Shown here one piece after another: positions 1-13,961 of a stretch of 32,000 nt of DNA; within the stretch, counting starts at the first letter, position 1, and the number at the start of each line of letters is the position of its first letter. The notes under the pieces are model-generated. The model saw only the letters and a list, made by a program, of their open reading frames with translations, made no database searches and had not been told where the DNA came from. This stretch comes from Acholeplasma laidlawii PG-8A (GTDB taxonomy: Bacteria; Bacillota_I; Bacilli_A; Acholeplasmatales; Acholeplasmataceae), in the NCBI RefSeq assembly GCF_000018785.1, contig NC_010163.1, positions 990,001-1,022,000 of the forward strand, read 5' to 3'. The position numbers and the translations under genes were made by a program.

Positions 1-301
1 GTCTCTCTGATTTACCAAACTCATTAATAATATCGGCAGCATCATCGGGCTCAAGATTTTGTACGACTAATACTTGTTCCTCTAAGCTTTGAGTTTGGAG
101 TAGTTCTGCTGCATGTTCCGGTTCTAGGTATGACAAAACATCAGCAAACTGCTCTGTAGGTAGAATTTGCTTTAATCTTTCTTGATATTCAGGTTTTAAT
201 TCTTTGAAGATTTCTACAATATCAAAACTGTGCATTTCTTCTAATGCTTGAAGGATATCCTTATCAGAAGCATCATTTAAAAGCATATCTTTAATATCCA
301 T
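1..301 (-). CDS. mgtE: Mg2+ transporter MgtE, N-terminal part (gene continues past the window start)
   Basis: Minus-strand reading frame open to the window edge, with ATG at 301-299. It is absent from the ORF track because it has no stop in the window. Translation MDIKDMLLNDASDKDILQALEEMHSFDIVEIFKELKPEYQERLKQILPTEQFADVLSYLEPEHAAELL...NLEPDDAADIINEF fits the MgtE N-terminal domain pattern. Confidence 0.6.
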   Translation of the reverse strand, partial: MDIKDMLLNDASDKDILQALEEMHSFDIVEIFKELKPEYQERLKQILPTEQFADVLSYLEPEHAAELLQTQSLEEQVLVVQNLEPDDAADIINEFGKSER

Positions 302-549
302 ATTTACACATCCCTTTAATTCTTCAACCGTTATTTTTATTACTAAAATTTGGTAAAGTCTTCTATTATCAATGATATCATTTTTAAGCCCCATTTGTCC
401 ATTATGCTGTATGATGTTATTTTTTTATTGTTCTATCTAGTTCGGTTCTTCTTTGTTATACAAAGGTTTAATAAAACGAGTGTAAATTTACATATTATTT
501 CGTCTTAGCATGTTAAAATAAATATAACAATACTTGAGAGGAAATTAAA

Positions 550-1497
550 ATGAATAAATCACAACAAAGTAGAATATTTGTTGCTAGCGCACTGTTCATA
601 CTACTGATAGCTGCTTCGTTTATTTTTGGAGCGACTGTTTTTATTGTGGGCGCACTGGCAATACTCACGTCTTTCGTGGTAGAAATACTTAGCACAAAAG
701 CTAGAAAAGAAACTTTTGATTGGACAAGTTTCTGGATCACACCACTTGTTATTACACTACTTACAACACCAACGATCATTGATCAAGTTTGGATGGTAAG
801 TATTGCTACAGCATTTGGGGTATTCTTTGCAAAATCCATATGGGGTGGGCAAGACAAGAACGTATTTAATCCAGCCATGGTTGGATTAATCTTCATTGCA
901 CTTGCATTTCCAATTTATGTTAATAATTTTCTAGAACCAGTATCTGGTTTGGCTTCTCCTCAGACTTTAGCTACAATCTTTAAAAATAGTCCAGGGCAAA
1001 TCATGACTACCTATTCCTTATGGGATGTCTTACTAGGAAACTATGCTGGAGCAATCGGTACTACATTTAAGTTGGGTATCATTATATTAGGTTTACTCAT
1101 GATGGTTGTAAGAATATCTGATTGGCGTATTCCACTAACCTTTGTAGGTACATATTTTGTATTATCACTCATCAATGGTTTTACAAAAACAGGTGTTAAT
1201 CCATTTATGTATGCAACTTACTCTATTTTAATGGGACACTTAATGTTTGCTGTCATGTTTGTTTCTACAGACCCACAAACTGCACCATTATACAATAAGG
1301 GTAAATTCATCTATGGAATTGGATTAGGATTTATCACTTGGATTATTCAAAATATTTGGGTTTTCAATCCTCTTGCACCAAATACTGAAGGTATTATCTA
1401 TTCTGTAACATTCATGAATGCTGTTGTAGGCTTAATTGATGTATGGACTGTACCTAAAGTAAAAGATATTCCTAACCTCGAGGAGGTAGCTATATGA
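550..1497 (+). CDS. nqrB: NqrB/RnfD-family polytopic membrane subunit of an Nqr/Rnf-type redox pump (short form, 315 aa)
   Basis: Family-typical motifs are present: SIWGGQDKNVFNPAM and LLGNYAGAIGTTFKLGIIILGLLMMVVRISDWRIP. There are many hydrophobic segments. RBS GAGAGGA lies upstream of ATG 550, and there is an ATGA overlap with the next gene. Confidence 0.8.
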   Translation: MNKSQQSRIFVASALFILLIAASFIFGATVFIVGALAILTSFVVEILSTKARKETFDWTSFWITPLVITLLTTPTIIDQVWMVSIATAFGVFFAKSIWGGQDKNVFNPAMVGLIFIALAFPIYVNNFLEPVSGLASPQTLATIFKNSPGQIMTTYSLWDVLLGNYAGAIGTTFKLGIIILGLLMMVVRISDWRIPLTFVGTYFVLSLINGFTKTGVNPFMYATYSILMGHLMFAVMFVSTDPQTAPLYNKGKFIYGIGLGFITWIIQNIWVFNPLAPNTEGIIYSVTFMNAVVGLIDVWTVPKVKDIPNLEEVAI

Positions 1498-3464
1498 AAA
1501 AATATATTAGTATGTTAAGTTTCGTTCTTATCATGGGTATTGTATCTTCTGTTATTTTAATGGGTGCAGATATGATCACACGTGATAGAATTGCTAAAAA
1601 TGCAGAATATGCTTGGAAAACAGCTATATTAACGCATCATAATGTTGATTATACTGATGCAAACTTCGACGAAGTATTTCTAGAAACTTTTGAAGAAAGA
1701 ACTGCAGAAGACACTAATGGTAAGACAAGATACTTATATGTTCATAACCAAACTGGTGCAGTGAGTTATCAGTTCAGCGGTGGTGGCTTATGGGATACCA
1801 TAGCTGGTGTTATTACATTAGAAAGTGATTTCCAAACAATTGTTCAAATCACTGTTACTAAACAAGGAGAAACTCCAGGTTTAGGTGGTATTGTTGCAGA
1901 AAAACCTTATCTAGATAATTATGCTGGTAAGAAATTTGATGAATCCTTAGGGTTGGTGGCTGTTAAATCAGAACCTACTACAGATTATGAAGTAGATGCA
2001 ATTACCGGTGCTACTGGTACTTCTAATGCTTTTGTTGGTCTATTAAGTGTTGAATACCGCACTATGTTAGGTTTATTTGGAGATGTAAATCCATTATCCG
2101 TTGCTATGAAAGCTATTATGACTCATAATGATGTCGAGTTTACTGGCGAAAACTTTGAAAATGTATTTGCTCAAAACTTCGAAACAAATACAATCGATGA
2201 ATTAACACTATATACTCACAAAGTAAATGGCAACGTAAGTTTCACATTTACTGCTGGCGGATTTAACGGTCCAATTGATGCAGTTGTGACACTTGATCCA
2301 CTATTCGAAACAATTCTAGGTATCAAAGTACTTTCTCAATCAGAAGGTTGGGGCGCAGTTATTCAAACAAACCCAGCAGTATTAGAATACTTTGTAGGTA
2401 AGAAATTTGCACCTGACTTCGAATTATCTGATGATTTTGATGGTTTCGGTGGTGCTACAACGACTAGAAAGAATTTCGTATTAGGACTTAATGAAGCAAG
2501 AGATTTATATTATTCAATCTTTATTGATGGTGTAGATCCAAACATGGTTTGGAAACAAGCCCTTCTAACTAATAATGGTATTACTTCTACTGAAGCAGAT
2601 TATAAGACATTATTCAATCAAACATTTACTGTTGAAACACAAGGTGATTTAACACTTTATAGAAATAACGCAGACCAAAATATTAGTATGTTATTTGAAA
2701 CAGACGGTTTTGGTGGTGTTATTAAGGGTGTATTAACACTTGAAAATGATTTTTCAACAATTGTTTATATTACAATTTATCAACAATCCGAAACTTGGGG
2801 AGCTCGTATCCAAAATAACGCGGAATTCTTTGATGCTTATGTAGGTAAGAAGTTTGCTCCAACTATCTCATTTGTAGAAACTCCAGCAACCGATTCTGAA
2901 ATCGTTGATGGTTATGGTGGTGCAACTACAACTAAAGGCGCTATGCTTGAGATATTAAATTCAGTACGTGATACATATTACACTGCGTTCTTCGATCCAA
3001 ACATGGTTTGGAAAAAAGCAATGCTTGCAAATAACGGTGTTGAATCTACTGACTTAAATTATGAAACATTATTTGATACAACATTTAATGTAGAAACTTC
3101 TGGTGACTTAACATTATATACAAATAAGACAAATCAAAATGTAAGTTTCACATATGAAACAACAGGTTTTGTAGGTGACATTAAAGGTGTTATAACACTA
3201 GCTAGTGATTTTGAAACAATTGTTCGTATCAGTGTTTATGAACAACATGAAAAATGGGGTGCACGTATTCAAACAACCCTAACATTCTTTGATGCTTATG
3301 TTGGTAAGAAATTCTCACCAACAATCTCATTTGTAGAAACACCAACAACAGATTCTGAAATTGTTGATGGTTATGGTGGAGCTACTACAACTAAGGCTTC
3401 TATGTTAAACATTTTAAATGAGACAGTAGCAGCATACAAATTAGCATTTGCGGTGGAGGCATAA
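1494..3464 (+). CDS. nqrC: NqrC/RnfG-family subunit: N-terminal membrane anchor plus four tandem FMN-binding ectodomain modules (656 aa)
   Basis: N-terminal TM helix ISMLSFVLIMGIVSSVILMG. Module 1 has the canonical GETPGLGG and DAITGATGTS flavinylation-type motifs. Three further modules carry DGFGGATTT or DGYGGATTT. RBS GAGGAGG is at about 1480-1486. Confidence 0.8.
   Translation: MKKYISMLSFVLIMGIVSSVILMGADMITRDRIAKNAEYAWKTAILTHHNVDYTDANFDEVFLETFEERTAEDTNGKTRYLYVHNQTGAVSYQFSGGGLWDTIAGVITLESDFQTIVQITVTKQGETPGLGGIVAEKPYLDNYAGKKFDESLGLVAVKSEPTTDYEVDAITGATGTSNAFVGLLSVEYRTMLGLFGDVNPLSVAMKAIMTHNDVEFTGENFENVFAQNFETNTIDELTLYTHKVNGNVSFTFTAGGFNGPIDAVVTLDPLFETILGIKVLSQSEGWGAVIQTNPAVLEYFVGKKFAPDFELSDDFDGFGGATTTRKNFVLGLNEARDLYYSIFIDGVDPNMVWKQALLTNNGITSTEADYKTLFNQTFTVETQGDLTLYRNNADQNISMLFETDGFGGVIKGVLTLENDFSTIVYITIYQQSETWGARIQNNAEFFDAYVGKKFAPTISFVETPATDSEIVDGYGGATTTKGAMLEILNSVRDTYYTAFFDPNMVWKKAMLANNGVESTDLNYETLFDTTFNVETSGDLTLYTNKTNQNVSFTYETTGFVGDIKGVITLASDFETIVRISVYEQHEKWGARIQTTLTFFDAYVGKKFSPTISFVETPTTDSEIVDGYGGATTTKASMLNILNETVAAYKLAFAVEA
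1602..3452 (+). repeat. In-frame tandem array of four RnfG/NqrC-ectodomain modules (about 1602-2087, 2088-2534, 2535-2993, 2994-3452)
   Basis: Recurrent landmarks appear in each module: WK.A.L..(H/N)N, LTLY, (Q/E).SE.WGA or GETPGLGG, Y.GKKF, and D....GAT. Modules 3 and 4 both start with GATCCAAACATGGTTTGGAAA and are 459 nt apart. They remain clearly alignable at the DNA level. Confidence 0.8.
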
Positions 3465-3465
3465 T

Positions 3466-4125
3466 ATGGAAAACAATCAATCAATCTTACCTAAACCAAG
3501 TCGCTGGTTAAGACTCCAATACAAAAAATGGTTTCTCATACTTAAAAATGGTATTTCAGAAGAAAACCCAATTATTGTCTCAGTATTAGGTATCTGTTCA
3601 GCACTTGCTGTTACAAATAGAGTAGAAAATGCAATCGTCATGGGTATTGGTGTTACATTCGTTATCATGGCTTCTTCTATGATGGTCTCTATGATGCGTA
3701 ATCTCATCCCTTCAAAGGTACGTATGGTAGCTTTCATGGTTATTATTTCAATGTTTACTATCGTAGTTCAAATGTTCTTACAAGCATTCCTACCTGTAGT
3801 TGCTGCAAACCTTGGTGCATATACTGGTTTAATTATCACAAACTGTATTGTTATGGGTAGAGCAGAAGCATTTGCTATCAAAAATCCTGTTAAATATACT
3901 ATTATTGACGGTTTTGCTAACGGTATGGGTTATACCTTAGTATTAATTGCAATCGCTGCAGTTCGTGAGCCTTTAGCATTTGGAACATTCCTTGGTATGA
4001 GTATCCCTGGTTTTGATAACTGGATTAACTGGAACGTTATGGCGTTAGCACCTGGTGGTTTCTTCGTATTAACCTTATTAGCATGGTTAGTGCGTACATT
4101 AACCAAGAAATATGAAGAAGCGTAG
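3466..4125 (+). CDS. nqrD: NqrD/RnfE-family membrane subunit
   Basis: Start moved from the track's TTG 3448 to ATG 3466, which has RBS GGTGGAGG at 3452-3459 and lies just after the TAA of the previous gene. Motifs LGICSALAVT and GLIITNCIVMGRAEAF are typical of the NqrD/RnfE family, including its two conserved Cys. Confidence 0.85.
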   Translation: MENNQSILPKPSRWLRLQYKKWFLILKNGISEENPIIVSVLGICSALAVTNRVENAIVMGIGVTFVIMASSMMVSMMRNLIPSKVRMVAFMVIISMFTIVVQMFLQAFLPVVAANLGAYTGLIITNCIVMGRAEAFAIKNPVKYTIIDGFANGMGYTLVLIAIAAVREPLAFGTFLGMSIPGFDNWINWNVMALAPGGFFVLTLLAWLVRTLTKKYEEA

Positions 4126-4138
4126 GAGGAGATAAAAC

Positions 4139-4723
4139 ATGGAATTAATTGAATTATTCTTAGCATCAATACTATCAAATAACATCGCCTTGATCTTCAT
4201 TTTAGGGATGTGTTCATTAATCGCTGTATCTACATCCATTAAAAACTCCGTCAACATGGGTGTTGCAGTTATCTTTGTTGTTACAATCACAGCTATAATT
4301 AACTGGCCAATTTATGAATTACTTAAAGCAACTGGTACAGAACAATTAGCATTATTAGTATTTATTATTGTTATTGCAGCATTTGTACAATTCTTAGAAA
4401 TGTTCTTAGCTAAATATTTTCCAAAGATTTACGAATCATTTGGTATATTCTTACCACTAATTACTGTTAACTGTATCGTATTATCTGTATCACTGTTTTT
4501 CCAACAAAGAAATTATGACTTCTTACAAACAACCGTATTTGCATTCGGTTCTTCAGTTGGTTGGACATTTGCAATGATCTTACTTGCAGGTGTTAGACAA
4601 AAAATGTACCGCGTATCTAACCTTCCAAAAGGTTTACGTGGTCGCGCGATTGCATTCTTAATTTTAGGGATCTTAGCATTAGCATTCATTGGCTTTACCG
4701 GTATCGGTAGAGTGTCATTTTAG
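4139..4723 (+). CDS. nqrE: NqrE/RnfA-family membrane subunit
   Basis: Motifs ILGMCSLIAVS, FVQFLEMFL and LPLITVNCIVLS are typical of NqrE/RnfA. RBS AGGAGGAG lies upstream. Confidence 0.85.
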   Translation: MELIELFLASILSNNIALIFILGMCSLIAVSTSIKNSVNMGVAVIFVVTITAIINWPIYELLKATGTEQLALLVFIIVIAAFVQFLEMFLAKYFPKIYESFGIFLPLITVNCIVLSVSLFFQQRNYDFLQTTVFAFGSSVGWTFAMILLAGVRQKMYRVSNLPKGLRGRAIAFLILGILALAFIGFTGIGRVSF

Positions 4724-4732
4724 GAGGAAACT

Positions 4733-5809
4733 ATGGATCCATTATATACACCAATAATTCTTATTGGTTTACTCATCGTTGTTACACTTGTAGTTATCTT
4801 AGTTGATAAATTACTCGGTGGTGGTGGTGAACGTAAAATCACTGTTAATAAAGATAATGTCATTACAATCTCTGGTAGAGAAACAGCATTAAATGCATTA
4901 ACTAATAATAAAATTTTCTTACCTTCTTCTTGTGGTGGTAAAGCTACTTGTGGTACATGTAAATTTAGATTAGTTGACTGGCATGAAGCTCCAAAACCTA
5001 CAGAAATACCATTCTTATCAAAAGATGAAATTAGCGAAGGCGTTCGCTTATCATGTCAAGTGGTTGTCACTGAAGACATGCAAGTTGAAGTACCACCTTC
5101 CGTATTAAATGTTAAACCTTTCTATGGTAAAGTCGTTGAAGTTGAGCAATTAACACACGATATTAGACGTATTAAATTCGAAATGAAAGAAGATTTCGTA
5201 TTCAAACCAGGACAATACTTACAAATCGAAGTACCTGGTATTGAAACAACGAGAGCATACTCTATTGCATCAAATCCAAATGATTTAAGACACCCTGAGG
5301 TAATTATTCGTTTAGTACCAGGCGGTGTTGCAACTAAGTTTATTCATAAAGCTTTAGTTATAGGCGATACATTAAAAATTACAGGTCCATTTGGTGACTT
5401 CTTCTTACAAGAAGAGTCTACTCGCCCAATCATTATGATTGCTGGTGGTTCTGGTAAAGCTCCAATTCGTTCAATTATCTATAAATTAATTGAACAAAAC
5501 ATGCCAAGAAAAGCACAATACTTCTTTGGTGCAAGAACTAAAAAAGATTTATATTATACTAAAGAATTCAAAGATGTTGAAGCGATGTATCCAAACTTCA
5601 AATATATTCCAGCTTTATCTACACCACTTCCAGAAGATGAGTGGGATCTAGATATCGGTCTTATTACAGAAGTTGTTGCAAGACACACTGGTGATCTAAG
5701 TGGTCACGAAGCATATCTTTGTGGATCTCCTGGTATGATCGATGCATGTATTAAAGTATTAAGAGAAAAAGGTATGCCTGAAGAACATATCTACTTCGAT
5801 AAATTCTAA
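4733..5809 (+). CDS. nqrF: NqrF-type NADH-oxidising subunit (TM anchor, 2Fe-2S ferredoxin domain, FAD/NAD(H) reductase domain)
   Basis: N-terminal TM helix. Cys67-x5-Cys73-x2-Cys76-x31-Cys108 (SSCGGKATCGTCKF...RLSCQV). RAYSIAS is the FAD RxYS motif, GGSGKAPIRS the NAD-binding motif, and YLCGSPGMIDA the C-terminal motif. RBS AGGAGGAA lies upstream. Confidence 0.85.
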   Translation: MDPLYTPIILIGLLIVVTLVVILVDKLLGGGGERKITVNKDNVITISGRETALNALTNNKIFLPSSCGGKATCGTCKFRLVDWHEAPKPTEIPFLSKDEISEGVRLSCQVVVTEDMQVEVPPSVLNVKPFYGKVVEVEQLTHDIRRIKFEMKEDFVFKPGQYLQIEVPGIETTRAYSIASNPNDLRHPEVIIRLVPGGVATKFIHKALVIGDTLKITGPFGDFFLQEESTRPIIMIAGGSGKAPIRSIIYKLIEQNMPRKAQYFFGARTKKDLYYTKEFKDVEAMYPNFKYIPALSTPLPEDEWDLDIGLITEVVARHTGDLSGHEAYLCGSPGMIDACIKVLREKGMPEEHIYFDKF

Positions 5810-5813: not shown

Positions 5814-5846
5814 AAAGGTGAGCTTAATGCTCACCTTTTTATTTTA
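5814..5846 (+). terminator. Rho-independent terminator of the nqr-like operon
   Basis: Perfect 10-bp stem AAAGGTGAGC/GCTCACCTTT (5814-5823 / 5829-5838) with loop TTAAT, followed by a TTTTTATTTT tail. It begins 5 nt after the nqrF stop. Confidence 0.7.
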
Positions 5847-5896: not shown

Positions 5897-6538
5897 TCAT
5901 TTTTGACTATCTAATTGTTTTTTTAAGATAAGATCTTTAGATTTCATGATACGTATTGTATTAGATAATTCTGCCTCGTTAATTTTCATTCGAACAACTT
6001 TAATGTCTTCCATAATTTCAGGAATTAGAATATGTTCAATCGCGTTTACACGGCGCTTAGTCTTTTCAATTTCTCTTATCAAGATACGGACTCTTTTATC
6101 CATTGCAGCAAGTTCAATAAACTTATCTAAATTACTTGCTAGATTTAGGACAATATCATCTAATATTGGATGTGTACCATGAAATGAGTACGTGATTTGA
6201 GGCTTTATAGTTTCTTTAATCTCAATTTTAGGTACTGTAACACTCATGACGGACTCTTTTTTATATTCAAGTTCTAGCGTTGTTGCAGGTACTAGAAATT
6301 TTTCACGTAATTCAGATTCATAATGAAACGCTTTAGCACTATCATACTTATCTAAGGCATCCAACCATTTATCTTCAACAAGCGTGCGTAAGACTTTATA
6401 TTGTTCAACCAGTTTTAAAAATTGGCGCATCATCTCATCTTGTTTATCCTTTAAAAGACGATGTCCCTTTCTTGTTGTAGCTAGTTGATTTTTTAATCTT
6501 GTAAGCTCCATTCTTGTTGCATTAGCGATATTTGGCAT
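5897..6538 (-). CDS. ntpD: V/A-type ATPase subunit D (central stalk)
   Basis: N-terminus ATRMELTRLKNQLATTRKGHRLLKDKQDEMMRQF matches the conserved V-type D pattern. It is the last gene of the ntp-like operon. Confidence 0.85.
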   Translation of the reverse strand: MPNIANATRMELTRLKNQLATTRKGHRLLKDKQDEMMRQFLKLVEQYKVLRTLVEDKWLDALDKYDSAKAFHYESELREKFLVPATTLELEYKKESVMSVTVPKIEIKETIKPQITYSFHGTHPILDDIVLNLASNLDKFIELAAMDKRVRILIREIEKTKRRVNAIEHILIPEIMEDIKVVRMKINEAELSNTIRIMKSKDLILKKQLDSQK

Positions 6539-6543
6539 TGAAA

Positions 6544-7923
6544 TTACTCCTTAACTTTGTAGTATTTATCTAAGCGTTTATTAGAAATACGTTTCAATTC
6601 AGATCTTGGTAGAATATTTAATAATTTCCAACCTAGATCAAGTGTTTCTTCGATAGTTCTATTGGATTCATATCCTTGAGATAAGTATTCTTTTTCAAAC
6701 TTATCTGCAAATACTGCATAGAGTTTATCTGTATCAGATAATGCAGATTCACCGAGTACAGTTGCTAATTCTTTAGCTTCTTTACCACGTGCATAACTTG
6801 CAAATAATTGGTTTAATGTATCAGAGTGATCATCTCTTGTTTTACCTTCACCAATACCTTTATCTTTTAGACGAGATAAAGATGGTAAAACATCCACTGG
6901 TGGTTGTATACCTTTTTGATGTAAGCTTCTAGATAAAATAACTTGACCTTCTGTAATATATCCTGTTAAGTCAGGAATTGGGTGGGTCTTATCATCTTCT
7001 GGCATGGTAAGGATAGGTAATTGCGTAATAGAGCCTTTTTTGCCCTTTACACGACCTGCACGCTCATATAAAGACGAAAGGTCAGTATACATATAACCAG
7101 GGTAACCACGACGTCCTGGCACTTCTTTTCTCGCTGCTGAAATTTCTCTTAAGGACTCTGCATAGTTTGTAATATCAGTCATGATAATTAAAACGTGCAT
7201 ATCTAATTCATAAGCTAAATACTCAGCTGCTGTAATTGCCATACGAGGGGTTGCAATACGTTCAACTGCCGGGTCATTTGCAAGGTTTACAAACATGACT
7301 GTTCTATCGATTGCACCTGATTTTTTAAATTCCTCAATAAAGAAGTTTGACTCTTCAAATGTAATACCAATTGCAGCAAATACTACTGCAAAGTTATCCG
7401 TTGTACCAACAACTTTTGCATTTCTAGCAATCATTGCAGCTAGTTTATTATGAGGTAGTCCTGATCCTGAAAAGATTGGTAATTTTTGTCCACGAACAAG
7501 TGTATTTAATCCATCAATGGATGAAACTCCTGTTTGAATAAACTCAGATGGATAGTCTCTAGCTACCGGGTTTAGTGGTATACCATTAATATCCATTTTC
7601 ATTTCTGGAATGATTTTACCTTTACCATCTTTAGGTTCACCCATACCACTAAAGATACGGCCTAAAATGAGTGGAGATAAATCAAGTTCTAAACCATGAC
7701 CTAAGAATACTGCTTTAGCATCTTCTATTTTTAATCCTTGACTGGATTCAAATAATTGAACTAACGCTTTATCTTGATCAATTTCTAGGACACGCCCATA
7801 TCTGGTCGTACCATTAGCTAGTTTAACACGCACTGTTTCATCATACTTAACATTTTCAGTATGTGTTACAAGCATTAAGGGTCCAACGACTTCTTTGATT
7901 GTTTTATATTCTCTATTCGACAT
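6544..7923 (-). CDS. ntpB: V/A-type ATPase subunit B (non-catalytic)
   Basis: Alpha/beta ATPase fold motifs without a canonical P-loop lysine box: [60 protein letters not shown]. Confidence 0.95.
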
Positions 7924-7927
7924 CGTT

Positions 7928-9688
7928 TTACTCCTTTCTTAAACCGCTAAATTGTTGATGCATCTCTTTAACGACCTCTTCATATGTGTTTAGCATATCT
8001 TTTTCTTCAACATACTTAAAGCGTCCAATTTGTTCTTTCACAGCTAAGCGTTCAATATCTTTAAAAGACATTTCATGTTCAATTGCGTGAACTGCTAAGT
8101 CGTTAAATAAAATAATCATATCTAATAATCTAAATTGTTTATCTAATGATGAGTACGTATCAATTGGATCAAATGCATTTTGATGTAAATAGTCTTCACG
8201 AATCATTTGAGCTACTAATAATTTTAAACGATCTGATGCACCTAGTGAATCTACCCCTACAAGTCTTACAATTTCTTGGAGTGAAGCTTCTTCTTGTAAA
8301 AGCGTTGAAACAAAACTTACATGGTGTGTCCAATTTTTATCTACATTTGTGTTAAAGAAGTCTCTAATCTGTTCATCGTATAATGAATAAGATTTTAACC
8401 AATCAATTGCAGGGAAGTGACGTCTATATGCAAGTGATGCAGATAAGCCCCAAAACACTTTAACAATTCTTAGAGTTGCTTGTGATACTGGTTCTGATGT
8501 ATCCCCACCTGGAGGGGAAACAGCTCCAATAGCGGTAATTGCACCAGTTCTTGCCTTTGAACCAAGTGTTTCAACTAAACCTGCACGTTCATAGAATTCT
8601 GCAATTCTTGAACCTAAATAAGCAGGATAACCTTCTTCACCTGGCATTTCTTCTAATCTTGAAGACATTTCACGTAAGGCTTCAGCCCAACGTGATGTAG
8701 AGTCCGCCATAATAGCTACTTTATAGCCCATATCTCTAAAGTATTCAGCAATTGTAATACCTGTATAGATACTAGCCTCTCTCGCAGCAACTGGCATGTT
8801 TGAGGTGTTTGCGATTAATACAGTACGTTTCATAAGTGGCTGCCCTGTTCTAGGATCTTTTAATTCAGGGAACTCCATAAGTACGTCAGTCATCTCATTT
8901 CCACGTTCACCACAACCAATGTACACAATAATATCTGCATCAGCCCATTTTGCTAATTGGTGTTGAACTACAGTTTTTCCACTACCAAAAGGTCCAGGGA
9001 TTGCTGCAATACCACCGATAGCAATCGGGAATAACGTATCAATAACACGTTGTCCTGTAACCATTGGTTGCGTTGGTGCTATTTTTTTATTATATGGTCT
9101 TTTAATACGTACTGGCCATGATTGCATCATCTTAAGTGGTAAGATGTCGCCATCATGATCTAGTTCACATACAGTATCAACCACTGTAAATTCACCGGAT
9201 TTGATTGACTTTACAGTACCACTTAGATTTGGTGGAACCATAACTTTATGAACTACAGATTCCGATTCATGAACAATACCAATAATATCGCCACCTTCTA
9301 CAATATCCCCAACCTCAACTTGTGGTATAAATTGCCATAGCTTTTCTCTATTTAATTTAGGGATATCAACACCCAGTGGAATACCTTGTCCATGGATTTG
9401 ATAAATACTATCCAGTGGTCTTTGAATACCATCAAAAATACCACCGATCAAACCAGGTCCAAGTTCAACACTTAATGGTTCATTTGTTAAAAATACAGGT
9501 TCACCTGGTCCAATACCAGCAGTTTCTTCATAAACTTGAATCGATGCTAGATCACCACGTAATTCTAAGACTTCACCAATTAATCTTTTGTCAGAAACTC
9601 TAACAACATCATAAACTTGAGCTGAACCCATGTTTTTAGCAACAATTAATGGACCTGATACTTTAGTTATAATACCTTGATTTGTCAT
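7928..9688 (-). CDS. ntpA: V/A-type ATPase catalytic subunit A
   Basis: Walker [10 protein letters not shown], plus GCGERGNEM and [26 protein letters not shown]. The start is probably ATG 9688 ([14 protein letters not shown]), 9 nt after AAGGAG. The track's ATG 9706 (ATGA overlap with the upstream gene) remains possible. Confidence 0.95.
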
Positions 9689-9702
9689 TTTTTCATGCTC
9701 CT

Positions 9703-10008
9703 TCATATAATTGAAATCCCAATTGATTTTTCAACAAGTAATTTCAATTCGGATAATGTATCTTCATGTTTTAAACCACTTGGTAGTTTTAAAAATATAG
9801 GATACATAGACTCTTCATATTTCTCTAATAAAGTTTGAACATAAGCCTCACTAACTGCATCATAGATGATAATTTTACTATCACTTGATGCATATTTGGC
9901 AATATGTTCTTCTACATTCTTCAAGTCATTATCAACATAGACGGTTACACCCACACTACGTAGAATAATGAATGACTCATTCGTACTACATGCAACTATT
10001 TCTGGCAT
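9703..10008 (-). CDS. ntpG: V/A-type ATPase subunit F (E. hirae NtpG position)
   Basis: About 100 aa, located directly upstream of A as in ntpFIKECGABD. Assigned mainly by size and synteny. Confidence 0.6.
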
Positions 10009-10015
10009 AATTCAT

Positions 10016-10939
10016 CTACTCCTTAATTTGATAATACTTTTCTTTTAATACACGCATTTCATCTCTTTTTAAAATTGTATAGTGAAGTACTGTTGCAAAA
10101 CCTAAACTTTGGAAACTCAAATCTTCTAAAAGATTTTGTCTGTAAACATTGAATGCATCATTTAATATATCTAAGAAGTTTGGCTTACCTACATATTTAA
10201 ATGCATCAGTTAAAGTCACATCAAAGTGAAGACTTAAATACTGTCCTATTTCAGTAAGTGATTTGTCAAACAATTCCATTAGAATATGTTTATCAATCAT
10301 ACCACCACTTAAGATATTCATTTCTAAATATTCTATATTTTTATTGTATTTGATGCTTCTTATCAGTAACATCACATTCAAGATAGTCGTTTCTAATTCA
10401 ATATATTTTTTGATATAATTATCTGTTTTTTTGTTGAATGAAGTTATGATTCTATCATGTAATATTTTAATCACTCTATCAGAAATACCTTGTGCATCTA
10501 ATTGAGTTGTCTCTGATTTTATGTGATCTAAAAACGAAATGTCTTCTAAATCAAGTAAACCAGATACTCCATTTAAAATATAATCTTCATATCTTTCTTC
10601 ATGAAAGTTACTTAAACTATCTGTAAACTTATTATAAGTTAATCCTAGGTGATAGGATTTCATTAGGTTTGATAAAAACAGATGATCAAATGTTAAATAT
10701 AACACTTTAAAGATGAGATGATCTTTATCCATTAAAGATTCTAAGAATTGACGATGTTTTAATTCTTCTTCTAACATAATGCTGTCAATATTCGTTTCAC
10801 TGGCACGACCATATTGGTGTGTTTTAAGCAAACTTAAAAAATCTTTTCTAGATATATTTTCAAAACTCTTTAAATGGCTTGGTGATAATAAGTGATCCAT
10901 AGATCCACTCATTACACCACTAACAAATGAAATATCCAT
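10016..10939 (-). CDS. ntpC: V/A-type ATPase subunit C (d-like)
   Basis: 307-aa helical protein between the E-like and F-like genes. Assigned by size and synteny with the E. hirae ntp operon. Confidence 0.6.
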   Translation of the reverse strand: MDISFVSGVMSGSMDHLLSPSHLKSFENISRKDFLSLLKTHQYGRASETNIDSIMLEEELKHRQFLESLMDKDHLIFKVLYLTFDHLFLSNLMKSYHLGLTYNKFTDSLSNFHEERYEDYILNGVSGLLDLEDISFLDHIKSETTQLDAQGISDRVIKILHDRIITSFNKKTDNYIKKYIELETTILNVMLLIRSIKYNKNIEYLEMNILSGGMIDKHILMELFDKSLTEIGQYLSLHFDVTLTDAFKYVGKPNFLDILNDAFNVYRQNLLEDLSFQSLGFATVLHYTILKRDEMRVLKEKYYQIKE

Positions 10940-10941
10940 TA

Positions 10942-11547
10942 TTAATTTAACGCCTCATATATAGTTTTTTCATACTTTTTAGTTAGACTCTCAAGTAAAT
11001 TTTCAAATGAAAAGTTTAAGTCATATAGTTTACCTACAAGCATAAATCCTGATTCGATTTGTGCTGGTGTATGGCTTAATTTTAACTGATAGTCTTTACC
11101 TAATTTTTGATTTAATAGATCTGCTTCGACTAAGTCACCCTTCTTAGTTGTTAGAATACTTTGATACATTGCGTATTCTTTCTTATTTACTTGAATTTCT
11201 TCTGTTTTATCAATAGCTTGGTTTTGAATAGAACGTACTACATAATTAAAGTAGTCTTCTTTGTTTAAATGCTTTAATTCTTCTTTTAATGCTGTAAAGA
11301 TGGATTCAATCAGCTGTTGTTTAGATATAGCGACTTCATCTCTTAATGCACGTATACCTTCTTGTTTAGCTTGTTCAACTTGTGCCTTAGCTTTCTGTTG
11401 TGCTTTATGAAGTTGAACTTCTAAATCAGCTTTTGCTTCCTCAATTAATCTATGTTTAAGTGCTTCAGACTCATGCTTAGCACTTAAATTTATAGATTCA
11501 ATAATTGACTGACCTTTTTGTATTATTTTCTCTTCTAATTTTGACAT
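10942..11547 (-). CDS. ntpE: V/A-type ATPase subunit E (peripheral stalk)
   Basis: 201 aa. The N-terminal half is a charged, coiled-coil-like region rich in A/K/E/Q, and the C-terminal half is globular. The gene follows K as in ntp operons. Confidence 0.6.
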   Translation of the reverse strand: MSKLEEKIIQKGQSIIESINLSAKHESEALKHRLIEEAKADLEVQLHKAQQKAKAQVEQAKQEGIRALRDEVAISKQQLIESIFTALKEELKHLNKEDYFNYVVRSIQNQAIDKTEEIQVNKKEYAMYQSILTTKKGDLVEADLLNQKLGKDYQLKLSHTPAQIESGFMLVGKLYDLNFSFENLLESLTKKYEKTIYEALN

Positions 11548-11557
11548 AATAGCCTCT

Positions 11558-12049
11558 TTAAGCAGGTAATTGTGTCCACATTAAGATGGATACAAGTAAT
11601 GCTAAGATCGCATAAGTTTCTACTAAGGCTGTCATTGTAATCCCACGTGTTGAGATCTCTGGTCTTTTACCTGTCATTAAAATAGATGCAGCTGACATTT
11701 TACCTTGGTAAATAGCTGATACTAAACCAACAAGTGCAATTGGTAATGCTGCTGCAAAATACATTTGACCTTGCATTTCTGTTAATGCGATTGGTGAACC
11801 TGTTAACCAACCCATTCTAACTAATAATAATACTGCAACTAAGAATCCATAAATACCTTGTGTACCTGAAAGTGCTTGTAATACTAAAACCTTACCGAAC
11901 AAATCTGGTTTTTCACTTAATACTCCTGTTGCTGCTCTACCAGCAATAGAAACCCCCATCGCTGAACCAATACCTGCTAAACCTGCTGCTAAGGCAACTC
12001 CCATGAGTGCCCAAGTTAAACCGTCAAATGACATAAAAATGAATGGCAT
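11558..12049 (-). CDS. ntpK: V/A-type ATPase proteolipid subunit K (double-hairpin, 4 TM)
   Basis: 163 aa. LQALSGTQGIYGFLVA, IYQGKMSAA and ALVETYAILALLVS closely parallel E. hirae NtpK LQLLPGTQGLYGF / IAQGKVAAA / MVETYAILGF. Confidence 0.9.
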   Translation of the reverse strand: MPFIFMSFDGLTWALMGVALAAGLAGIGSAMGVSIAGRAATGVLSEKPDLFGKVLVLQALSGTQGIYGFLVAVLLLVRMGWLTGSPIALTEMQGQMYFAAALPIALVGLVSAIYQGKMSAASILMTGKRPEISTRGITMTALVETYAILALLVSILMWTQLPA

Positions 12050-12053
12050 ATTT

Positions 12054-13961
12054 TTAATTCTCCTTATTAATTTCTTTATTTTCTTTTAAATTGACTTGAT
12101 AAACATATTTTAATTGTAGGCTAAATGGTTCAAATAAGTAACCGCCGCCTTCAAAGAATTTTCCGTAAAACTCTAGATATTGTAAACGCCCTGCGTGTAC
12201 ATATGCAGATAACATACCCATAATAAAGTTAAATACGTGCCCTATTAAGTAAATTATGATACCTAATAATATACCTAATACAGGAATAGAACCCCATACC
12301 ATTTCACCTAGTAAGTTCATTGTATAAGCAATAACTGCAGTGGATAGGGATAATGCTAAAATTCTAGAGTAACTTAAGATATCTGATAAGTAACTTGTTG
12401 AGTTATATAGTCCAGCAATAGCTGAAACTATTTTTCCTGGTATAGATTTTTGTTCTCTACCATTTAATAAAATGATAATCAGTACACCTAATCCCATGAG
12501 TACATAAGATGTGTAAAGTAAAATATTTTGAATTAAGCTCTCTAGCGGGATAAACGTTGCTGTTATAAATAGACTTAATCCTACTAGGATAAATATCCAT
12601 GAACCTGCATCATTAAGGCCACCTAAGATATCTTTTTGTCGATAACTGTTAATAAGTTTCAGTATTAAACCGTGTACGATATGCACAACACCCAAAATAA
12701 GTGAAATGATTAACATCGGAACCGGATCATTTATCGGATCTAATAATGGAGTGAAGATGGTTGCTCCAAAGAAGGATCCAAATAATATACCTGCACCTAT
12801 TGAAGTGACACCTGAATAACAAAATATTTTAACCAAATCTTTTGTTGCACCTCTTAGTTTTCCAAATTTGAGTAATAAACCAAATGCAACAATCATCACA
12901 AGCCCATAACCAATATCTCCCATCATGATACCAAAGATTAACCAGTACCAAAAACTCATAGATGGGTTCGGGTCTACTTCAGAAGCAGATGGTGTTGAAA
13001 ATTGGTTGGTAATATATTCATAAGGTTTAACAAATCCATTATTCTTTAACGCTGTAGGCACCGACTCGTCTGAAAGTGCATCACGTGCTTCTAATTCAAA
13101 AACAAAGTTCTTATCATTTAATATTGTCTTGATGTCTTCTACTTGATCACCTCTAACCCAACCTTCTACATAGACTGTTGTTTCAGTACTTAAAAGTTCA
13201 ATTTGTAATTTTGATTCTTTACTTAAGAGTTGGTCATGTAAAAGTTTTAGTCCACCTAAATCTTTACTAGAATCGATAAAGAATTGTTCTGTTTCCTTCA
13301 TTTCTTTTTCAATGGATTCTAATTCGGAATTTAAGTCAGTAATCACTTCCATATTTGTCTTATCATAGTTTCTATTAGGTTCAATATTAAAATCCATGGA
13401 TTCTAGTAAATCTTCTAATCTATCACTTTGATCTTTATCAATCAAGATAGAAACATAATGATAATTATCATCACTACTTAAAATATCTACATATGCCCCT
13501 AAAGTATCCATGTGACCTTTAAATGCATCATACTTTTCTTTTTGGATAAATCCTAATACGACTTGTGTAAATCTTAAGGTTTCAATTCTTGATTGACTTA
13601 CACTTAAATTTTTATATGGTAAAAGTTCCTCATATTTTTCTTTTAAGGACTTTTGAGTTTCTTGTAACTTATAATATGTATTTTGCAAATCTAATATATT
13701 TGCTGCAAGTTCTAAGCTATGTTGATCTAAGAGTTCAAATTCAGACTTTGTAACAATCGCGTTATTACCCGTAGATTTTTTTAAATATCTTTCAATAATT
13801 TCAATAGCTTTACTCACGCGAATTAAATCTTCTGAAGGTGTAACTGATTTAAAATGCTTTTTATCAGGCATAAAAAGGGCATGCATTTGAAGTTCATTCA
13901 AAATTTGCTCCTTATCACTTTCTAGAAAAATTAATTTTACTTTTTGCATTGAAACGATCAT
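12054..13961 (-). CDS. ntpI: V/A-type ATPase subunit I (a-like stator/ion channel)
   Basis: 635 aa, with a soluble coiled N-terminal half and a polytopic C-terminal half. It contains SYSRILALSLS and HAGRLQYLEFYGKFFEGGG. ATGA overlap with the upstream gene. Confidence 0.85.
   Translation of the reverse strand: MIVSMQKVKLIFLESDKEQILNELQMHALFMPDKKHFKSVTPSEDLIRVSKAIEIIERYLKKSTGNNAIVTKSEFELLDQHSLELAANILDLQNTYYKLQETQKSLKEKYEELLPYKNLSVSQSRIETLRFTQVVLGFIQKEKYDAFKGHMDTLGAYVDILSSDDNYHYVSILIDKDQSDRLEDLLESMDFNIEPNRNYDKTNMEVITDLNSELESIEKEMKETEQFFIDSSKDLGGLKLLHDQLLSKESKLQIELLSTETTVYVEGWVRGDQVEDIKTILNDKNFVFELEARDALSDESVPTALKNNGFVKPYEYITNQFSTPSASEVDPNPSMSFWYWLIFGIMMGDIGYGLVMIVAFGLLLKFGKLRGATKDLVKIFCYSGVTSIGAGILFGSFFGATIFTPLLDPINDPVPMLIISLILGVVHIVHGLILKLINSYRQKDILGGLNDAGSWIFILVGLSLFITATFIPLESLIQNILLYTSYVLMGLGVLIIILLNGREQKSIPGKIVSAIAGLYNSTSYLSDILSYSRILALSLSTAVIAYTMNLLGEMVWGSIPVLGILLGIIIYLIGHVFNFIMGMLSAYVHAGRLQYLEFYGKFFEGGGYLFEPFSLQLKYVYQVNLKENKEINKEN

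What the first reader, a model, noticed from the sequence alone, without database searches (positions are those of the whole stretch)
1494..3464. Quadruplicated FMN-binding ectodomain in the NqrC/RnfG-like subunit: a predicted four-flavin chain on the outer membrane face
Seen: after one N-terminal TM helix, the 656-aa protein repeats the whole RnfG/NqrC ectodomain four times. Each copy ends in a potential flavinylation threonine. These are DAITGAT (T174, nt 2013-2015), DGFGGAT (T322, 2457-2459), DGYGGAT (T478, 2925-2927) and DGYGGAT (T631, 3384-3386). Only module 1 has the canonical GETPGLGG box. Modules 2-4 share the variants SEGWGA, SETWGA and HEKWGA, and a GGATTT site, so they form their own subtype. 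Established: canonical NqrC/RnfG have a single FMN_bind domain. ApbE/FmnB flavin transferases attach FMN covalently to the Thr/Ser of a Dxx(s/t)gA(T/S)-type motif on the extracytosolic side. Multi-FMN_bind lipoproteins such as Listeria PplA act in extracellular electron transfer. Inference: the pump may hand electrons along four covalent flavins away from the membrane, to O2, soluble acceptors or extracellular substrates, rather than back into NqrB. No apbE-like gene is in the window.
Basis: partly seen in the sequence, partly recalled or inferred. Interest (0 to 1): 0.8.

Follow-up and report, generated by a model that had tools for sequence, protein, structure and literature searches.

The report
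Four-module flavin subunit of Acholeplasma Nqr-like complex
A wall-less bacterium, Acholeplasma laidlawii, has a respiratory-type NADH enzyme whose outward-facing flavin subunit is repeated four times while the usual inward return route for electrons has been lost, so it probably passes electrons to something outside the cell; multi-flavin subunits of this general kind have already been catalogued in other bacteria.

Summary
ORF 1494-3464 (+) encodes a 656-aa protein with one N-terminal membrane helix and four complete NqrC/RnfG-type FMN modules. Each has Thr at the flavinylation position (T174, T322, T478, T631).

The window is Acholeplasma laidlawii. The gene lies in a five-gene nqrB-C-D-E-F operon with no nqrA, rnfC or rnfB.

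New points:
- Relatives in Acholeplasmataceae carry 2-6 modules. All 67 alignable extra modules keep Thr/Ser at the acceptor site.
- All four modules are under purifying selection.
- The B subunit has lost its own flavinylation motif. Single-module sister operons (Izemoplasmatales) and canonical Rnf/Nqr keep it.
- The inbound Fe-S ligands in NqrD, NqrE and NqrF are intact.

Together these support outward electron delivery through covalent flavins.

Not shown: flavinylation of modules 2-4, an apbE gene in the genome (none in the window +-10 kb; the rest of the genome could not be searched), flavin-flavin distances, the acceptor, and ion pumping.

The concept is not new. Meheust et al. 2021 described multi-flavinylated RnfGs and drew the same inference. 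This is a new variant of that kind, of moderate interest.

The parts
550..1497 (+). nqrB/rnfD-like membrane subunit (315 aa). It lacks the covalent-FMN motif of NqrB/RnfD.
   Evidence: Pfam NQR2_RnfD_RnfE E 1.3e-55. Best PDB matches are RnfD 7zc6_D and NqrB 7xk3_B. The region aligned to DGVTTAT/DGYSGAT reads EPVSGLASPQTLA and is not conserved in the Acholeplasmataceae clade. The acidic and gate residues equivalent to V. cholerae E144, D346, D397, F338 and F342 are retained, judged by eye in the alignment. The sequence is 100% identical to an NCBI protein named for A. laidlawii.
1494..3464 (+). nqrC/rnfG-like subunit, 656 aa, the finding itself. Its start overlaps the nqrB stop (ATGA).
1494..1580 (+). 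N-terminal membrane anchor (aa 1-29: MKKYISMLSFVLIMGIVSSVILMGADMIT). There is no lipobox Cys.
   Evidence: Sequence. AlphaFold2 predicts a long helix over aa 2-48. It aligns to the TM helix of V. cholerae NqrC and C. tetanomorphum RnfG.
1581..2090 (+). Module 1 (aa 30-199), a canonical NqrC/RnfG module with GETPGLGG and DAITGAT. T174 is at nt 2013-2015.
   Evidence: It aligns to V. cholerae NqrC, with T174 opposite the flavinylated T225. All FMN-pocket residues of V. harveyi NqrC are kept.
2091..2537 (+). Module 2 (aa 200-348), with SEGWGA and DGFGGAT. T322 is at nt 2457-2459.
   Evidence: It forms its own orthologous group across the A. laidlawii clade. dN/dS is 0.12.
2538..2999 (+). Module 3 (aa 349-502), with SETWGA and DGYGGAT. 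T478 is at nt 2925-2927.
   Evidence: dN/dS is 0.03.
3000..3461 (+). Module 4 (aa 503-656), with HEKWGA and DGYGGAT. T631 is at nt 3384-3386. It is 67% identical to module 3.
   Evidence: dN/dS is 0.33 on few substitutions.
3466..4125 (+). nqrD/rnfE-like subunit. The ATG at 3466 is the called start; the longest ORF begins at a TTG at 3448.
   Evidence: Pfam Rnf-Nqr E 7.8e-55. NCBIfam nqrD 209 bits, below the cut-off of 235. It has exactly two Cys, in the conserved contexts LGICSAL and TNCIVMG. Gene call in L001.
4139..4723 (+). nqrE/rnfA-like subunit.
   Evidence: Pfam Rnf-Nqr E 5.6e-53. It has two Cys, in LGMCSLI and VNCIVLS.
4733..5809 (+). nqrF-like subunit: TM helix, 2Fe-2S ferredoxin domain, FAD domain and NAD(H) domain. 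This is the electron entry module.
   Evidence: Pfam Fer2, FAD_binding_6 and NAD_binding_1. NCBIfam nqrF 240 bits, below the cut-off of 295. Cys67, 73, 76 and 108 are present.
5814..5838 (+). Intrinsic-terminator-like hairpin followed by a T-run. It marks the end of the operon.
   Evidence: 10-bp stem with 5 GC pairs, then TTATTTTATG.

Best explanation
The gene encodes the NqrC/RnfG-type subunit of a five-subunit NqrBCDEF complex of Acholeplasma laidlawii. The protein is held in the membrane by one N-terminal helix. It displays four complete NqrC-like FMN modules on the outer surface of this wall-less cell.

Most likely each module carries one FMN, phosphoester-linked to Thr174, Thr322, Thr478 or Thr631 by an ApbE-type flavin transferase encoded elsewhere in the genome. 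NADH is oxidised by NqrF (FAD, 2Fe-2S). Electrons cross the membrane through the Cys-ligated Fe-S centre of NqrD/E and reach the FMN of module 1.

The complex has no NqrA/RnfC, and its B subunit has lost its own flavinylation site. The normal return route to the cytoplasmic side is therefore missing. Electrons would leave outward through modules 2-4 to an external acceptor. The most probable acceptor is O2, which would make the complex a membrane NADH oxidase producing H2O2 or superoxide. Fe(III), free flavins or other oxidants are alternatives.

Shown here: the architecture, the operon content, loss of the B-subunit motif, conservation of the acceptor Thr, purifying selection, and intact Fe-S ligands. 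Inferred: flavinylation of modules 2-4, the direction of electron flow, and the acceptor. Whether the flavins act in series or in parallel, and whether Na+ is still translocated through subunit B, remain open.
For: 1) There are four NqrC/RnfG modules with Thr at the site that aligns to the flavinylated T225 of V. cholerae NqrC.
2) In 28 relatives with 2-6 modules, all 67 alignable extra modules have Thr (62) or Ser (5) at the acceptor position. Thr at +2, which H-bonds flavin N3 in NqrC, is present in 66 of 66. Asp at -6 is present in 52 of 66 (pocket residues from PMC4348036).
3) Apo-NqrC binds free FMN very weakly, so an extracytosolic module can keep a flavin only if it is covalently attached (PMC4348036).
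4) dN/dS against strain 8195 is 0.07, 0.12, 0.03 and 0.33 for M1-M4.
5) The operon is nqrB-C-D-E-F, with no nqrA, rnfC or rnfB, in all 11 contexts examined.
6) The flavinylation motif of subunit B is absent or unconserved in 29 of 29 Acholeplasmataceae-clade sequences. It is present in the Izemoplasmatales/HGW-Tenericutes sister operons, which have a single-module NqrC, and in C. tetanomorphum RnfD, V. cholerae NqrB and the L014 RnfD.
7) The Fe-S Cys ligands of NqrD, NqrE and NqrF are kept.
8) A characterised multi-FMN protein (SaFMN3) is fully flavinylated by ApbE and is reoxidised by O2 at 1.2 s-1 (PMC10339131).
9) The same inference was published for multi-flavinylated RnfGs (PMC8238504).
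Against: - No apbE was found in the window, within 10 kb of it, or beside any homologous operon. The rest of the genome could not be searched.
- Modules 2-4 have Gly instead of Ser/Thr at -3 of the D-x-x-[S/T]-G-A-[S/T] motif.
- In modules 2-4 the ETPGLG loop and the Leu-Trp loop, which line the flavin in NqrC, are replaced by x-W-G and F-x.
- AlphaFold2 gives no confident inter-module geometry (pTM 0.49 and 0.68). Modules of ~150 aa could place the flavins too far apart for direct tunnelling.
- No acceptor gene is conserved next to the operon.
- Sister operons also lack nqrA yet keep the subunit-B FMN site. Loss of nqrA alone therefore does not prove outward flow.
- No experimental data on this protein were found in the searchable literature.
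Confidence: 0.5

Rival explanations
1. Parallel flavin sites rather than a serial wire. Modules 2-4 are flavinylated, but they are not an ordered relay reaching away from the membrane. They act as several equivalent terminal sites, or as an electron buffer. Each would be reduced by contact with module 1 or with the NqrD/E centre through domain movement, and each would react independently with O2 or another oxidant. Copy number would then tune capacity or turnover rather than reach.
For: Copy number varies freely (2-6), and the distal module type is repeatedly re-duplicated in single lineages. Inter-module geometry is not confidently fixed (pTM 0.49/0.68). The three flavins of SaFMN3 share one potential and behave identically. 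Published AlphaFold models of multi-FMN proteins are mostly beads on a string (PMC11334425). NqrC itself is known to move between partners in Na+-NQR (established knowledge; titles of PMC10643135 and PMC12901251).
Against: The connectors between modules are only ~6 residues, between two helices, not flexible Gly/Ser linkers. In the A. laidlawii clade, M1, M2 and M3/4 are three distinct conserved types in a fixed order, which suggests position-specific roles.
Confidence: 0.25
2. Only module 1 is redox-active. Modules 2-4 are degenerate, flavin-free copies that serve as a spacer, a surface shield, an adhesion or flavin-scavenging domain, or size-variable surface protein, as is common in Mollicutes. 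The complex otherwise works like an ordinary Nqr/Rnf-type enzyme with an unknown membrane acceptor.
For: Modules 2-4 lack the absolutely conserved ETPGLG box and the Leu-Trp loop, and have a non-canonical -3 residue. In the deepest relatives (P0023, P0025-P0030) the extra modules are very divergent and several lose Asp-6 or have Val at -1. Copy number varies between close relatives. No apbE was located.
Against: The acceptor Thr/Ser is kept in 67 of 67 extra modules and Thr+2 in 66 of 66, across lineages that duplicated independently. That is hard to explain without a flavin. Glu of the ETPGLG box is kept in 51 of 71 extra modules, and Lys of GKKF in most. dN/dS is 0.03-0.12 for M2 and M3. Loss of the subunit-B FMN site leaves module 1 with no known partner.
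Confidence: 0.15
3. Inward or reversible operation. The surface flavins collect electrons from an external reductant or a reduced shuttle and feed them inward to reduce NAD+, possibly driven by the Na+ gradient made by the neighbouring ATPases. Alternatively the complex mainly serves Na+ homeostasis.
For: Rnf-type complexes are reversible (PMC12174285 abstract). The operon lies next to V-type and F-type ATPase operons. In A. hippikon it lies next to Trk and a Na+/H+ exchanger. The ion-path residues of subunit B are kept.
Against: NqrF-type input modules are NADH dehydrogenases. FMN at about -200 mV is a poor donor to NAD+ without strong energisation. No supporting physiology is known.
Confidence: 0.05

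Closest known systems
Multi-flavinylated RnfG subunits in RNF gene clusters (Meheust et al. 2021, eLife, PMC8238504). They are predicted only, not characterised.
   Same: A membrane-anchored RnfG/NqrC-type subunit with several tandem FMN_bind modules, encoded inside the operon. The published inference is the same: a second electron path to extracytosolic acceptors. An example retrieved here is L014, an rnfC-D-G-E-A-B operon with a 621-aa, 4-module RnfG.
   Different: In the L014 example the cluster keeps rnfC, the RnfD flavinylation motif (DGVTTAT) and canonical ETPGxG plus D..[TS][GS]AT in every module. That would give a branch added to a complete loop. Here the input module is NqrF. There is no NqrA/RnfC/RnfB, subunit B has lost its FMN site, and the distal modules are a distinct 'WG' subtype.
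[quoted passage not shown]
   Same: NqrF, NqrD, NqrE and NqrB homologues in the same gene order. The Fe-S ligands are conserved. Module 1 aligns with NqrC, including the flavinylated Thr.
   Different: There is no NqrA. NqrB lacks the ~100-aa N-terminal extension and the DGYSGAT FMN site. NqrC has four modules. All NCBIfam Nqr equivalog scores are below their cut-offs. Quinone reduction is unlikely.
Two-subunit 'NQR/RNF-like' unidirectional systems (Meheust 2021; Huang 2024, PMC11334425).
   Same: A proposed one-way NAD(P)H-to-extracytosolic-flavin electron path built from part of the Nqr/Rnf machinery.
   Different: Those systems fuse an NqrB/RnfD membrane domain to a cytosolic NAD-binding domain, have only two subunits, and lack NqrD/E/F. 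Here NqrD, NqrE and a separate NqrF are present, and NqrB carries no NAD domain.
Secreted or lipoprotein multi-FMN proteins: Listeria PplA of the extracellular electron transfer system, and SaFMN3/CbFMN4 (Tong 2023, PMC10339131).
   Same: Several ApbE-type covalent FMNs on one extracytosolic polypeptide. [quoted passage not shown] The FMNs are reactive with O2.
   Different: Those proteins use minimal ~85-aa FMN_bind domains joined by flexible linkers, and they are separate proteins fed by Ndh2/quinone or unknown donors. Here each repeat is a full ~150-aa NqrC ectodomain joined by ~6-residue connectors, and the protein is an integral subunit of the NADH-oxidising complex.

Membership tests
Pfam FMN_bind (PF04205) | Score above the gathering threshold. 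| tested here: met
   129 bits against a cut-off of 22, E 1.1e-37, 4 separate stretches.
RnfG subfamily (NCBIfam TIGR01947) | Score above the curated cut-off. | tested here: met
   123.4 bits against a cut-off of 102, in 4 stretches; the best stretch covers aa 12-189.
NqrC equivalog (NCBIfam TIGR01938 and the NF0037xx models) | Score above the curated cut-off. | tested here: not met
   114.1 bits against a cut-off of 144. All other NqrC models are far below their cut-offs.
Na+-NQR complex | Six subunits, including NqrA. | tested here: not met
   The operon starts with nqrB at 550. Upstream is 250 nt of intergenic DNA and a convergent MgtE gene. nqrA is absent from all 11 related operon contexts. 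A copy elsewhere in the genome cannot be excluded.
Na+-NQR complex | Covalent FMN site in NqrB (DGYSGAT-type motif). | tested here: not met
   The aligned segment reads EPVSGLASPQTLA. The terminal position varies (T/S/F/I/M/V) in 29 clade members.
Na+-NQR complex | NqrF with 2Fe-2S, FAD and NADH domains, and Cys pairs in NqrD/E for the intramembrane Fe-S centre. | tested here: met
   Pfam Fer2 + FAD_binding_6 + NAD_binding_1. Cys positions confirmed.
Na+-NQR complex | Na+-dependent quinone reduction. | not testable with these tools
   This needs biochemistry.
RNF complex | RnfC (NADH/FMN/Fe-S) and RnfB (ferredoxin-side Fe-S) subunits. | tested here: not met
   Neither is in the operon or the window. 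L014 serves as a positive control and does show RnfC.
ApbE flavinylation substrates | Motif D-x-x-[S/T]-G-A-[S/T] (PMC12052999). | tested here: inconclusive
   Module 1 (DAITGAT) matches fully. Modules 2-4 (DG[FY]GGAT) match 6 of 7 positions, with Gly at -3. The effect of Gly at -3 is not reported in the texts read.
ApbE flavinylation substrates | A flavin transferase (ApbE/FmnB, PF02424) encoded in the genome. | not testable with these tools
   None in the window or within 10 kb of it. Indirect support: the canonical module-1 motif is essentially invariant across the family. One paper states that ApbE homologues accompany rnf clusters in Mollicutes (PMC7074142).
Multi-flavinylated proteins (Meheust 2021 definition) | More than one FMN_bind domain on a predicted extracytosolic protein. 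| tested here: met
   Four domains follow a single N-terminal TM helix.
Two-subunit NQR/RNF-like system (Meheust 2021 definition) | NqrB/RnfD membrane domain fused to a C-terminal PF00175 NAD-binding domain. | tested here: not met
   The NqrB-like protein is 315 aa and matches PF03116 only. PF00175 lies in the separate NqrF.

The most novel reading that the evidence does not exclude
The Acholeplasmataceae NqrBCDEF complex is a rewired Na+-NQR derivative. It has lost both NqrA and the subunit-B flavin, and instead grew a variable-length array (2-6) of covalent surface flavins. It would work as an outward-directed, possibly still Na+-coupled, NADH:O2 or NADH:extracellular-acceptor oxidoreductase. 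It would then be the molecular identity of the classical membrane-bound, flavin-terminated NADH oxidase that distinguishes Acholeplasma from Mycoplasma. That classical biochemistry is recalled from the 1960s-80s literature and could not be verified with the paper tools. It would also be a natural flavin-only 'wire' operating on a wall-less cell surface.
Probability: 0.35. Interest if true: 0.75.

Novelty: new variant of a known kind. Interest (0 to 1): 0.45.

Why it matters
If all four modules carry FMN and electrons leave through them, this is a compact, cytochrome-free and quinone-free route from cytoplasmic NADH to the cell exterior. It is built by pruning and extending the Na+-NQR scaffold.

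It would offer a natural series of 1- to 6-flavin versions of the same complex, which could be used to test how multi-flavin proteins conduct electrons. The host is genetically tractable and wall-less, so the flavins face the medium directly; A. laidlawii tools are described in PMC10805103 (listed).

It could also explain how quinone-less acholeplasmas reoxidise NADH at the membrane and feed their Na+-based bioenergetics. V-type and F-type ATPase operons lie immediately downstream.

Subunit B loses its flavin site in the same lineages in which subunit C gains modules. That is a concrete evolutionary clue about how electron paths in Nqr/Rnf machines are rerouted.

Tried and rejected
1) Finding apbE.
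- Pfam scans of all window ORFs of 100 aa or more found none.
- Gene tables extending 10 kb beyond the first operon genes and beyond the last gene of the window found none.
- Ten further homologous operon contexts found none.
- A whole-genome search was not possible. The word-indexed protein search would be saturated by close relatives of any ApbE query available to me, so I ran no further search on it.

2) Literature on this protein.
- No paper holds Acholeplasma together with NqrC, NqrF or RnfG.
- The only paper holding Acholeplasma together with ApbE is an unrelated Enterococcus study.
- The supplements of Meheust 2021 that are held as text do not contain Acholeplasma.
- The A. laidlawii genome paper is not held.
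- The classical NADH-oxidase papers were not found.

3) FMN riboswitch or other RNA element upstream: no Rfam hit in the whole window.

4) Flavin-flavin distances: the structure tool returns confidence values only, not coordinates. pTM 0.49 and 0.68 do not settle rigid against flexible.

5) Conserved acceptor gene next to the operon: none. Neighbours differ between lineages. V-ATPase adjacency holds only within the Acholeplasma clade. A DtxR-like repressor lies upstream in one MAG only.

6) Rejected: the repeat as an assembly or annotation artefact. The identical protein is seen on 4 contigs. A 96% identical copy is in strain 8195, and orthologues occur across the family.

7) Rejected: modules 2-4 acquired from a PplA-type protein. 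A full HMMER scan of 1.84 billion representatives finds them only in multi-module NqrC/RnfG proteins or fragments of these. The module tree points to internal duplication.

Full report
**Observation.** The ORF at 1494-3464 (+) is real and encodes 656 aa.
- Flavinylation-type motifs: DAITGAT (T174, nt 2013-2015), DGFGGAT (T322, 2457-2459), DGYGGAT (T478, 2925-2927) and DGYGGAT (T631, 3384-3386).
- There is a single GETPGLGG box at aa 125.
- SEGWGA, SETWGA and HEKWGA are at aa 283, 432 and 585, and GGATTT occurs three times.

Pfam FMN_bind matches in four stretches (E 1.1e-37), as does NCBIfam rnfG (123 bits against a cut-off of 102). I cut the ectodomain into four ~150-aa modules: aa 30-199, 200-348, 349-502 and 503-656. 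Pairwise BLASTP between them gives E 1e-21 to 3e-74. M3 and M4 are 67% identical, M2 is 40-44% identical to M3/M4, and M1 is 37-38% identical to the others. The repeat is therefore far beyond chance, and each unit is the whole NqrC/RnfG ectodomain rather than only the ~80-aa Pfam core.

**Structure.** AlphaFold2 with a 17-sequence alignment gives mean pLDDT 82 and pTM 0.49. After the N-terminal helix (aa 2-48) the same fold is repeated four times. Each candidate Thr sits at the N-terminus of the last helix of its module (H174-195, H322-344, H478-499, H631-652). Modules are joined by ~6-residue connectors. Foldseek against the PDB returns only NqrC and RnfG chains at E <= 1e-3. By sequence, T174 aligns with the flavinylated T225 of V. 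cholerae NqrC. A model of M3-M4 alone has pTM 0.68. The modules are confidently folded, but their mutual arrangement is not confidently fixed. The tools give no coordinates, so flavin-flavin distances could not be measured.

**Source and context.** The exact protein is encoded on LS483439.1 (GCA_900476025.1, 1.50 Mb). A 96% identical copy is in Acholeplasma laidlawii strain 8195. The neighbouring NqrB-like protein is 100% identical to an NCBI entry named for A. laidlawii.

The gene is the second of a five-gene operon:
- nqrB/rnfD-like, 550-1497
- nqrC-like, 1494-3464
- nqrD-like, 3466-4125
- nqrE-like, 4139-4723
- nqrF-like, 4733-5809

A good terminator hairpin follows at 5814-5838. Upstream of nqrB there are 250 nt of intergenic DNA and the end of a convergent MgtE gene. 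There is no nqrA, rnfC or rnfB. Downstream on the other strand lie a V-type ATPase operon (5897-14266) and an F-type ATPase operon (14943-21478). No ApbE-family gene is in the window or within 10 kb on either side. No Rfam element, including the FMN riboswitch, is present.

**Relatives of the protein.** The word-indexed search found 30 relatives, all from Acholeplasma, Haploplasma or uncultured Acholeplasmataceae where a source names them. Their lengths are 361-1020 aa. An HMM of the four modules finds 2 to 6 modules in them. Examples are three modules in P0007 and P0008 (503 aa, 73-74% identical to the query) and six in P0001 (965 aa, 73% identical).

Across 74 extra (non-first) modules, 67 align at the flavinylation position, and all 67 have Thr (62) or Ser (5). 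Thr at +2 is present in 66 of 66 alignable modules and Asp at -6 in 52 of 66. The residues at -1 to -3 vary (GAT, GVT, SAT, AAT, NVT and others).

A neighbour-joining tree of the modules shows three things:
- In the A. laidlawii clade, M1, M2 and the M3/M4 type form three orthologous groups.
- The distal type has been re-duplicated repeatedly within single lineages (P0001 m4-m6, P0004 m3/m4, P0009 m3/m4).
- Other clades (P0018, P0020-22) multiplied their own canonical module independently.

Between the window and strain 8195, dN/dS is 0.07, 0.12, 0.03 and 0.33 for M1-M4. All four modules are therefore under purifying selection. The M4 figure rests on few substitutions.

**Are modules 2-4 flavin sites?** The ApbE motif is D-x-x-[S/T]-G-A-[S/T] (PMC12052999). 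M1 fits it completely. M2-M4 fit at six of seven positions, with Gly at -3.

The FMN pocket of V. harveyi NqrC is lined by Leu149, Trp150, Glu176, Thr177, Leu180, Gly181, Lys211, Gly227, Ala228, Thr229, Leu230 and Thr231. Apo-NqrC binds free FMN very weakly (PMC4348036). M1 keeps all of these residues. M2-M4 keep the Glu, the Lys (GKKF), Gly-Ala-Thr and Thr+2. They replace Leu-Trp by Phe-x and TPGLG by x-Trp-Gly. The pocket is thus remodelled with aromatic residues rather than destroyed.

Aromatic stacking on the flavin, together with a Thr or Ser at +2, is what the crystal structures of proven multi-FMN proteins show (PMC10339131). The acceptor residue is universally retained in an extracytosolic domain that cannot hold FMN non-covalently. 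I therefore consider flavinylation of M2-M4 likely, but it remains an inference.

**The rest of the complex.** NqrD and NqrE each contain exactly two Cys in the conserved contexts, and NqrF has its four 2Fe-2S Cys. The inbound path is therefore intact: NADH, then FAD, then 2Fe-2S, then the intramembrane Fe-S centre.

Subunit B is RnfD-sized (315 aa). It retains the acidic and Phe residues that line the ion path in V. cholerae NqrB, judged by eye from the alignment. The segment that aligns with the flavinylation motif (DGYSGAT in V. cholerae NqrB, DGVTTAT in C. tetanomorphum RnfD) reads EPVSGLASPQTLA. In 29 Acholeplasmataceae-clade sequences this segment is not conserved, and the would-be acceptor position is T, S, F, I, M or V.

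By contrast, the next-closest group keeps a canonical DGFAGAT or DLFTGAT motif. That group consists of Izemoplasmatales and 'HGW-Tenericutes-2'-type sequences, 38-43% identical to the window protein. Their operons are also nqrB-C-D-E-F without nqrA, but with a single-module, 194-aa NqrC (L015, L016). L015 is even syntenic with L004. L004 is an Acholeplasmataceae MAG whose NqrC has four modules and whose B subunit lacks the motif.

One single-module operon (L012) has an ambiguous B-subunit site, DPLTGSETT.

The likely order of events is:
1. An NqrA-less NqrBCDEF complex arose.
2. In Acholeplasmataceae, subunit B then lost its flavin, together with multiplication of the subunit-C module.

**Mechanism proposed.** In Na+-NQR, electrons go from the NqrD/E centre to FMN(NqrC), then to FMN(NqrB), riboflavin and quinone (established knowledge; summarised in PMC8238504 and PMC11334425). 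Here the first acceptor after NqrC is missing, and so is NqrA. The simplest reading is that electrons arriving at module 1 leave outward, through or onto modules 2-4, to an external oxidant.

O2 is the leading candidate:
- The reduced multi-FMN protein SaFMN3 is reoxidised by O2 at 1.2 s-1.
- From memory, not verified here, Acholeplasma is classically distinguished by a membrane-bound, flavin-terminated NADH oxidase and lacks cytochromes and quinones.
- Fe(III) or other acceptors remain possible.

No acceptor gene is conserved next to the operon in the contexts examined. Whether the flavins act in series or as parallel sites, and whether Na+ is still moved through subunit B, cannot be decided from sequence. 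The neighbouring ATPase operons make a link to ion bioenergetics plausible. In A. hippikon, Trk and Na+/H+ exchanger genes are also adjacent. Neither observation proves such a link.

**Comparison with what is known.** Meheust et al. 2021 surveyed 31,910 genomes and found 2081 proteins with more than one FMN_bind domain. [quoted passage not shown] Huang et al. 2024 modelled such proteins (PMC11334425). Tong et al. 2023 showed that 3- and 4-FMN proteins are fully flavinylated by ApbE (PMC10339131).

A full HMMER scan of 1.84 billion representative proteins found 1404 relatives (E <= 1e-3). Of the 139 best-scoring representatives not already found in the first search, 117 are single-module proteins of ~190-210 aa and 22 have two or more modules. 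One of these, P0072, has four canonical modules and lies in a complete rnfC-D-G-E-A-B operon whose RnfD keeps its DGVTTAT site (L014). That is the published type.

The Acholeplasma system differs in four ways:
- Its input module is NqrF.
- It has no NqrA, RnfC or RnfB.
- Its B subunit has no flavin site.
- Its distal modules are a distinct WG subtype.

It also differs from the two-subunit 'NQR/RNF-like' systems, which fuse NqrB to an NAD-binding domain.

Annotation-level papers mention an 'Rnf complex' in acholeplasmas (PMC4221730). They also mention an NqrBCDEF set in Izimaplasma ZiA1 and a Na+-NQR complex in A. palmae (PMC6256511). No searchable paper discusses the multi-module subunit, the missing NqrA or the lost B-subunit site in Acholeplasma. 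A 2025 RNF/NQR review does not mention Mollicutes.

**Verdict.** Outward electron delivery is strengthened by new operon-level evidence. Four covalent flavins forming a chain, the acceptor, and pumping all remain unproven, and the presence of apbE in the genome could not be checked. I file the finding as a new variant of a known kind (a multi-flavinylated NqrC/RnfG subunit), of moderate interest.

Noticed in passing
window 550-1497 (+): The NqrB/RnfD-like subunit lacks the covalent-FMN attachment motif found in V. cholerae NqrB (DGYSGAT) and RnfD (DGVTTAT). The aligned segment is EPVSGLASPQTLA, and it is unconserved in 29 Acholeplasmataceae homologues. Sister Izemoplasmatales-type homologues keep the motif.
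   Followed up: yes
window 1-550, and the operon 550-5809: The operon begins with nqrB. There is no nqrA, rnfC or rnfB. The same five-gene layout holds in all 11 related contexts examined, including single-module versions (L012, L015, L016).
   Followed up: yes
window 5897-14266 (-) and 14943-21478 (-): A complete V-type ATPase operon and a complete F-type ATPase operon lie back to back immediately downstream of nqrBCDEF, forming a ~21-kb bioenergetic cluster. V-ATPase adjacency is conserved in L011, L017 and L018 but not in Haploplasma (L002) or the deeper MAGs.
   Followed up: partly
P0021 (801 aa): One metagenomic homologue has the NqrB-like domain (PF03116) and three FMN_bind modules in a single ORF. 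This is either a natural B-C fusion or a frameshift or assembly artefact.
   Followed up: no
window 3000-3461, compared with L006: Between two A. laidlawii strains, synonymous divergence of module 4 is only 0.05, against ~0.26 for modules 1-3. DNA identity along the operon is mosaic (91-98%), which suggests recombination between strains.
   Followed up: partly
window 3448-3466: The longest nqrD ORF starts at a TTG at 3448, overlapping the end of nqrC. Gene callers use the ATG at 3466, one base after the nqrC stop codon.
   Followed up: partly
L015 compared with L004: The two loci are syntenic: DEAD_2 helicase, ribonucleotide reductase and HSP90 on one side, and beta-eliminating lyase, acetate kinase and phosphotransacetylase on the other. 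They differ in the operon. L015 has a 194-aa single-module NqrC and a B subunit with DLFTGAT. L004 has a 646-aa four-module NqrC and a B subunit without the motif.
   Followed up: partly
L018 8161-8844 (-): In one Acholeplasma-clade MAG, a DtxR/MntR-type iron-dependent repressor gene sits divergently just upstream of nqrB. This hints at metal-dependent regulation. It is absent at that position in A. laidlawii.
   Followed up: no
P0222 and P0225-P0240: Outgroup NqrB proteins of ~390-395 aa carry DGFSGET or DGFSGGT where V. cholerae has DGYSGAT. This is a variant of the subunit-B flavinylation site that I did not look into.
   Followed up: no
window 21893-24648 (-), 24584-28136 (-), 28325-29495 (-): The rest of the window holds a TldD/PmbA metallopeptidase pair, two ABC exporter genes and a DUF2089/SHOCT-like pair. 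Nothing links them to the finding.
   Followed up: no
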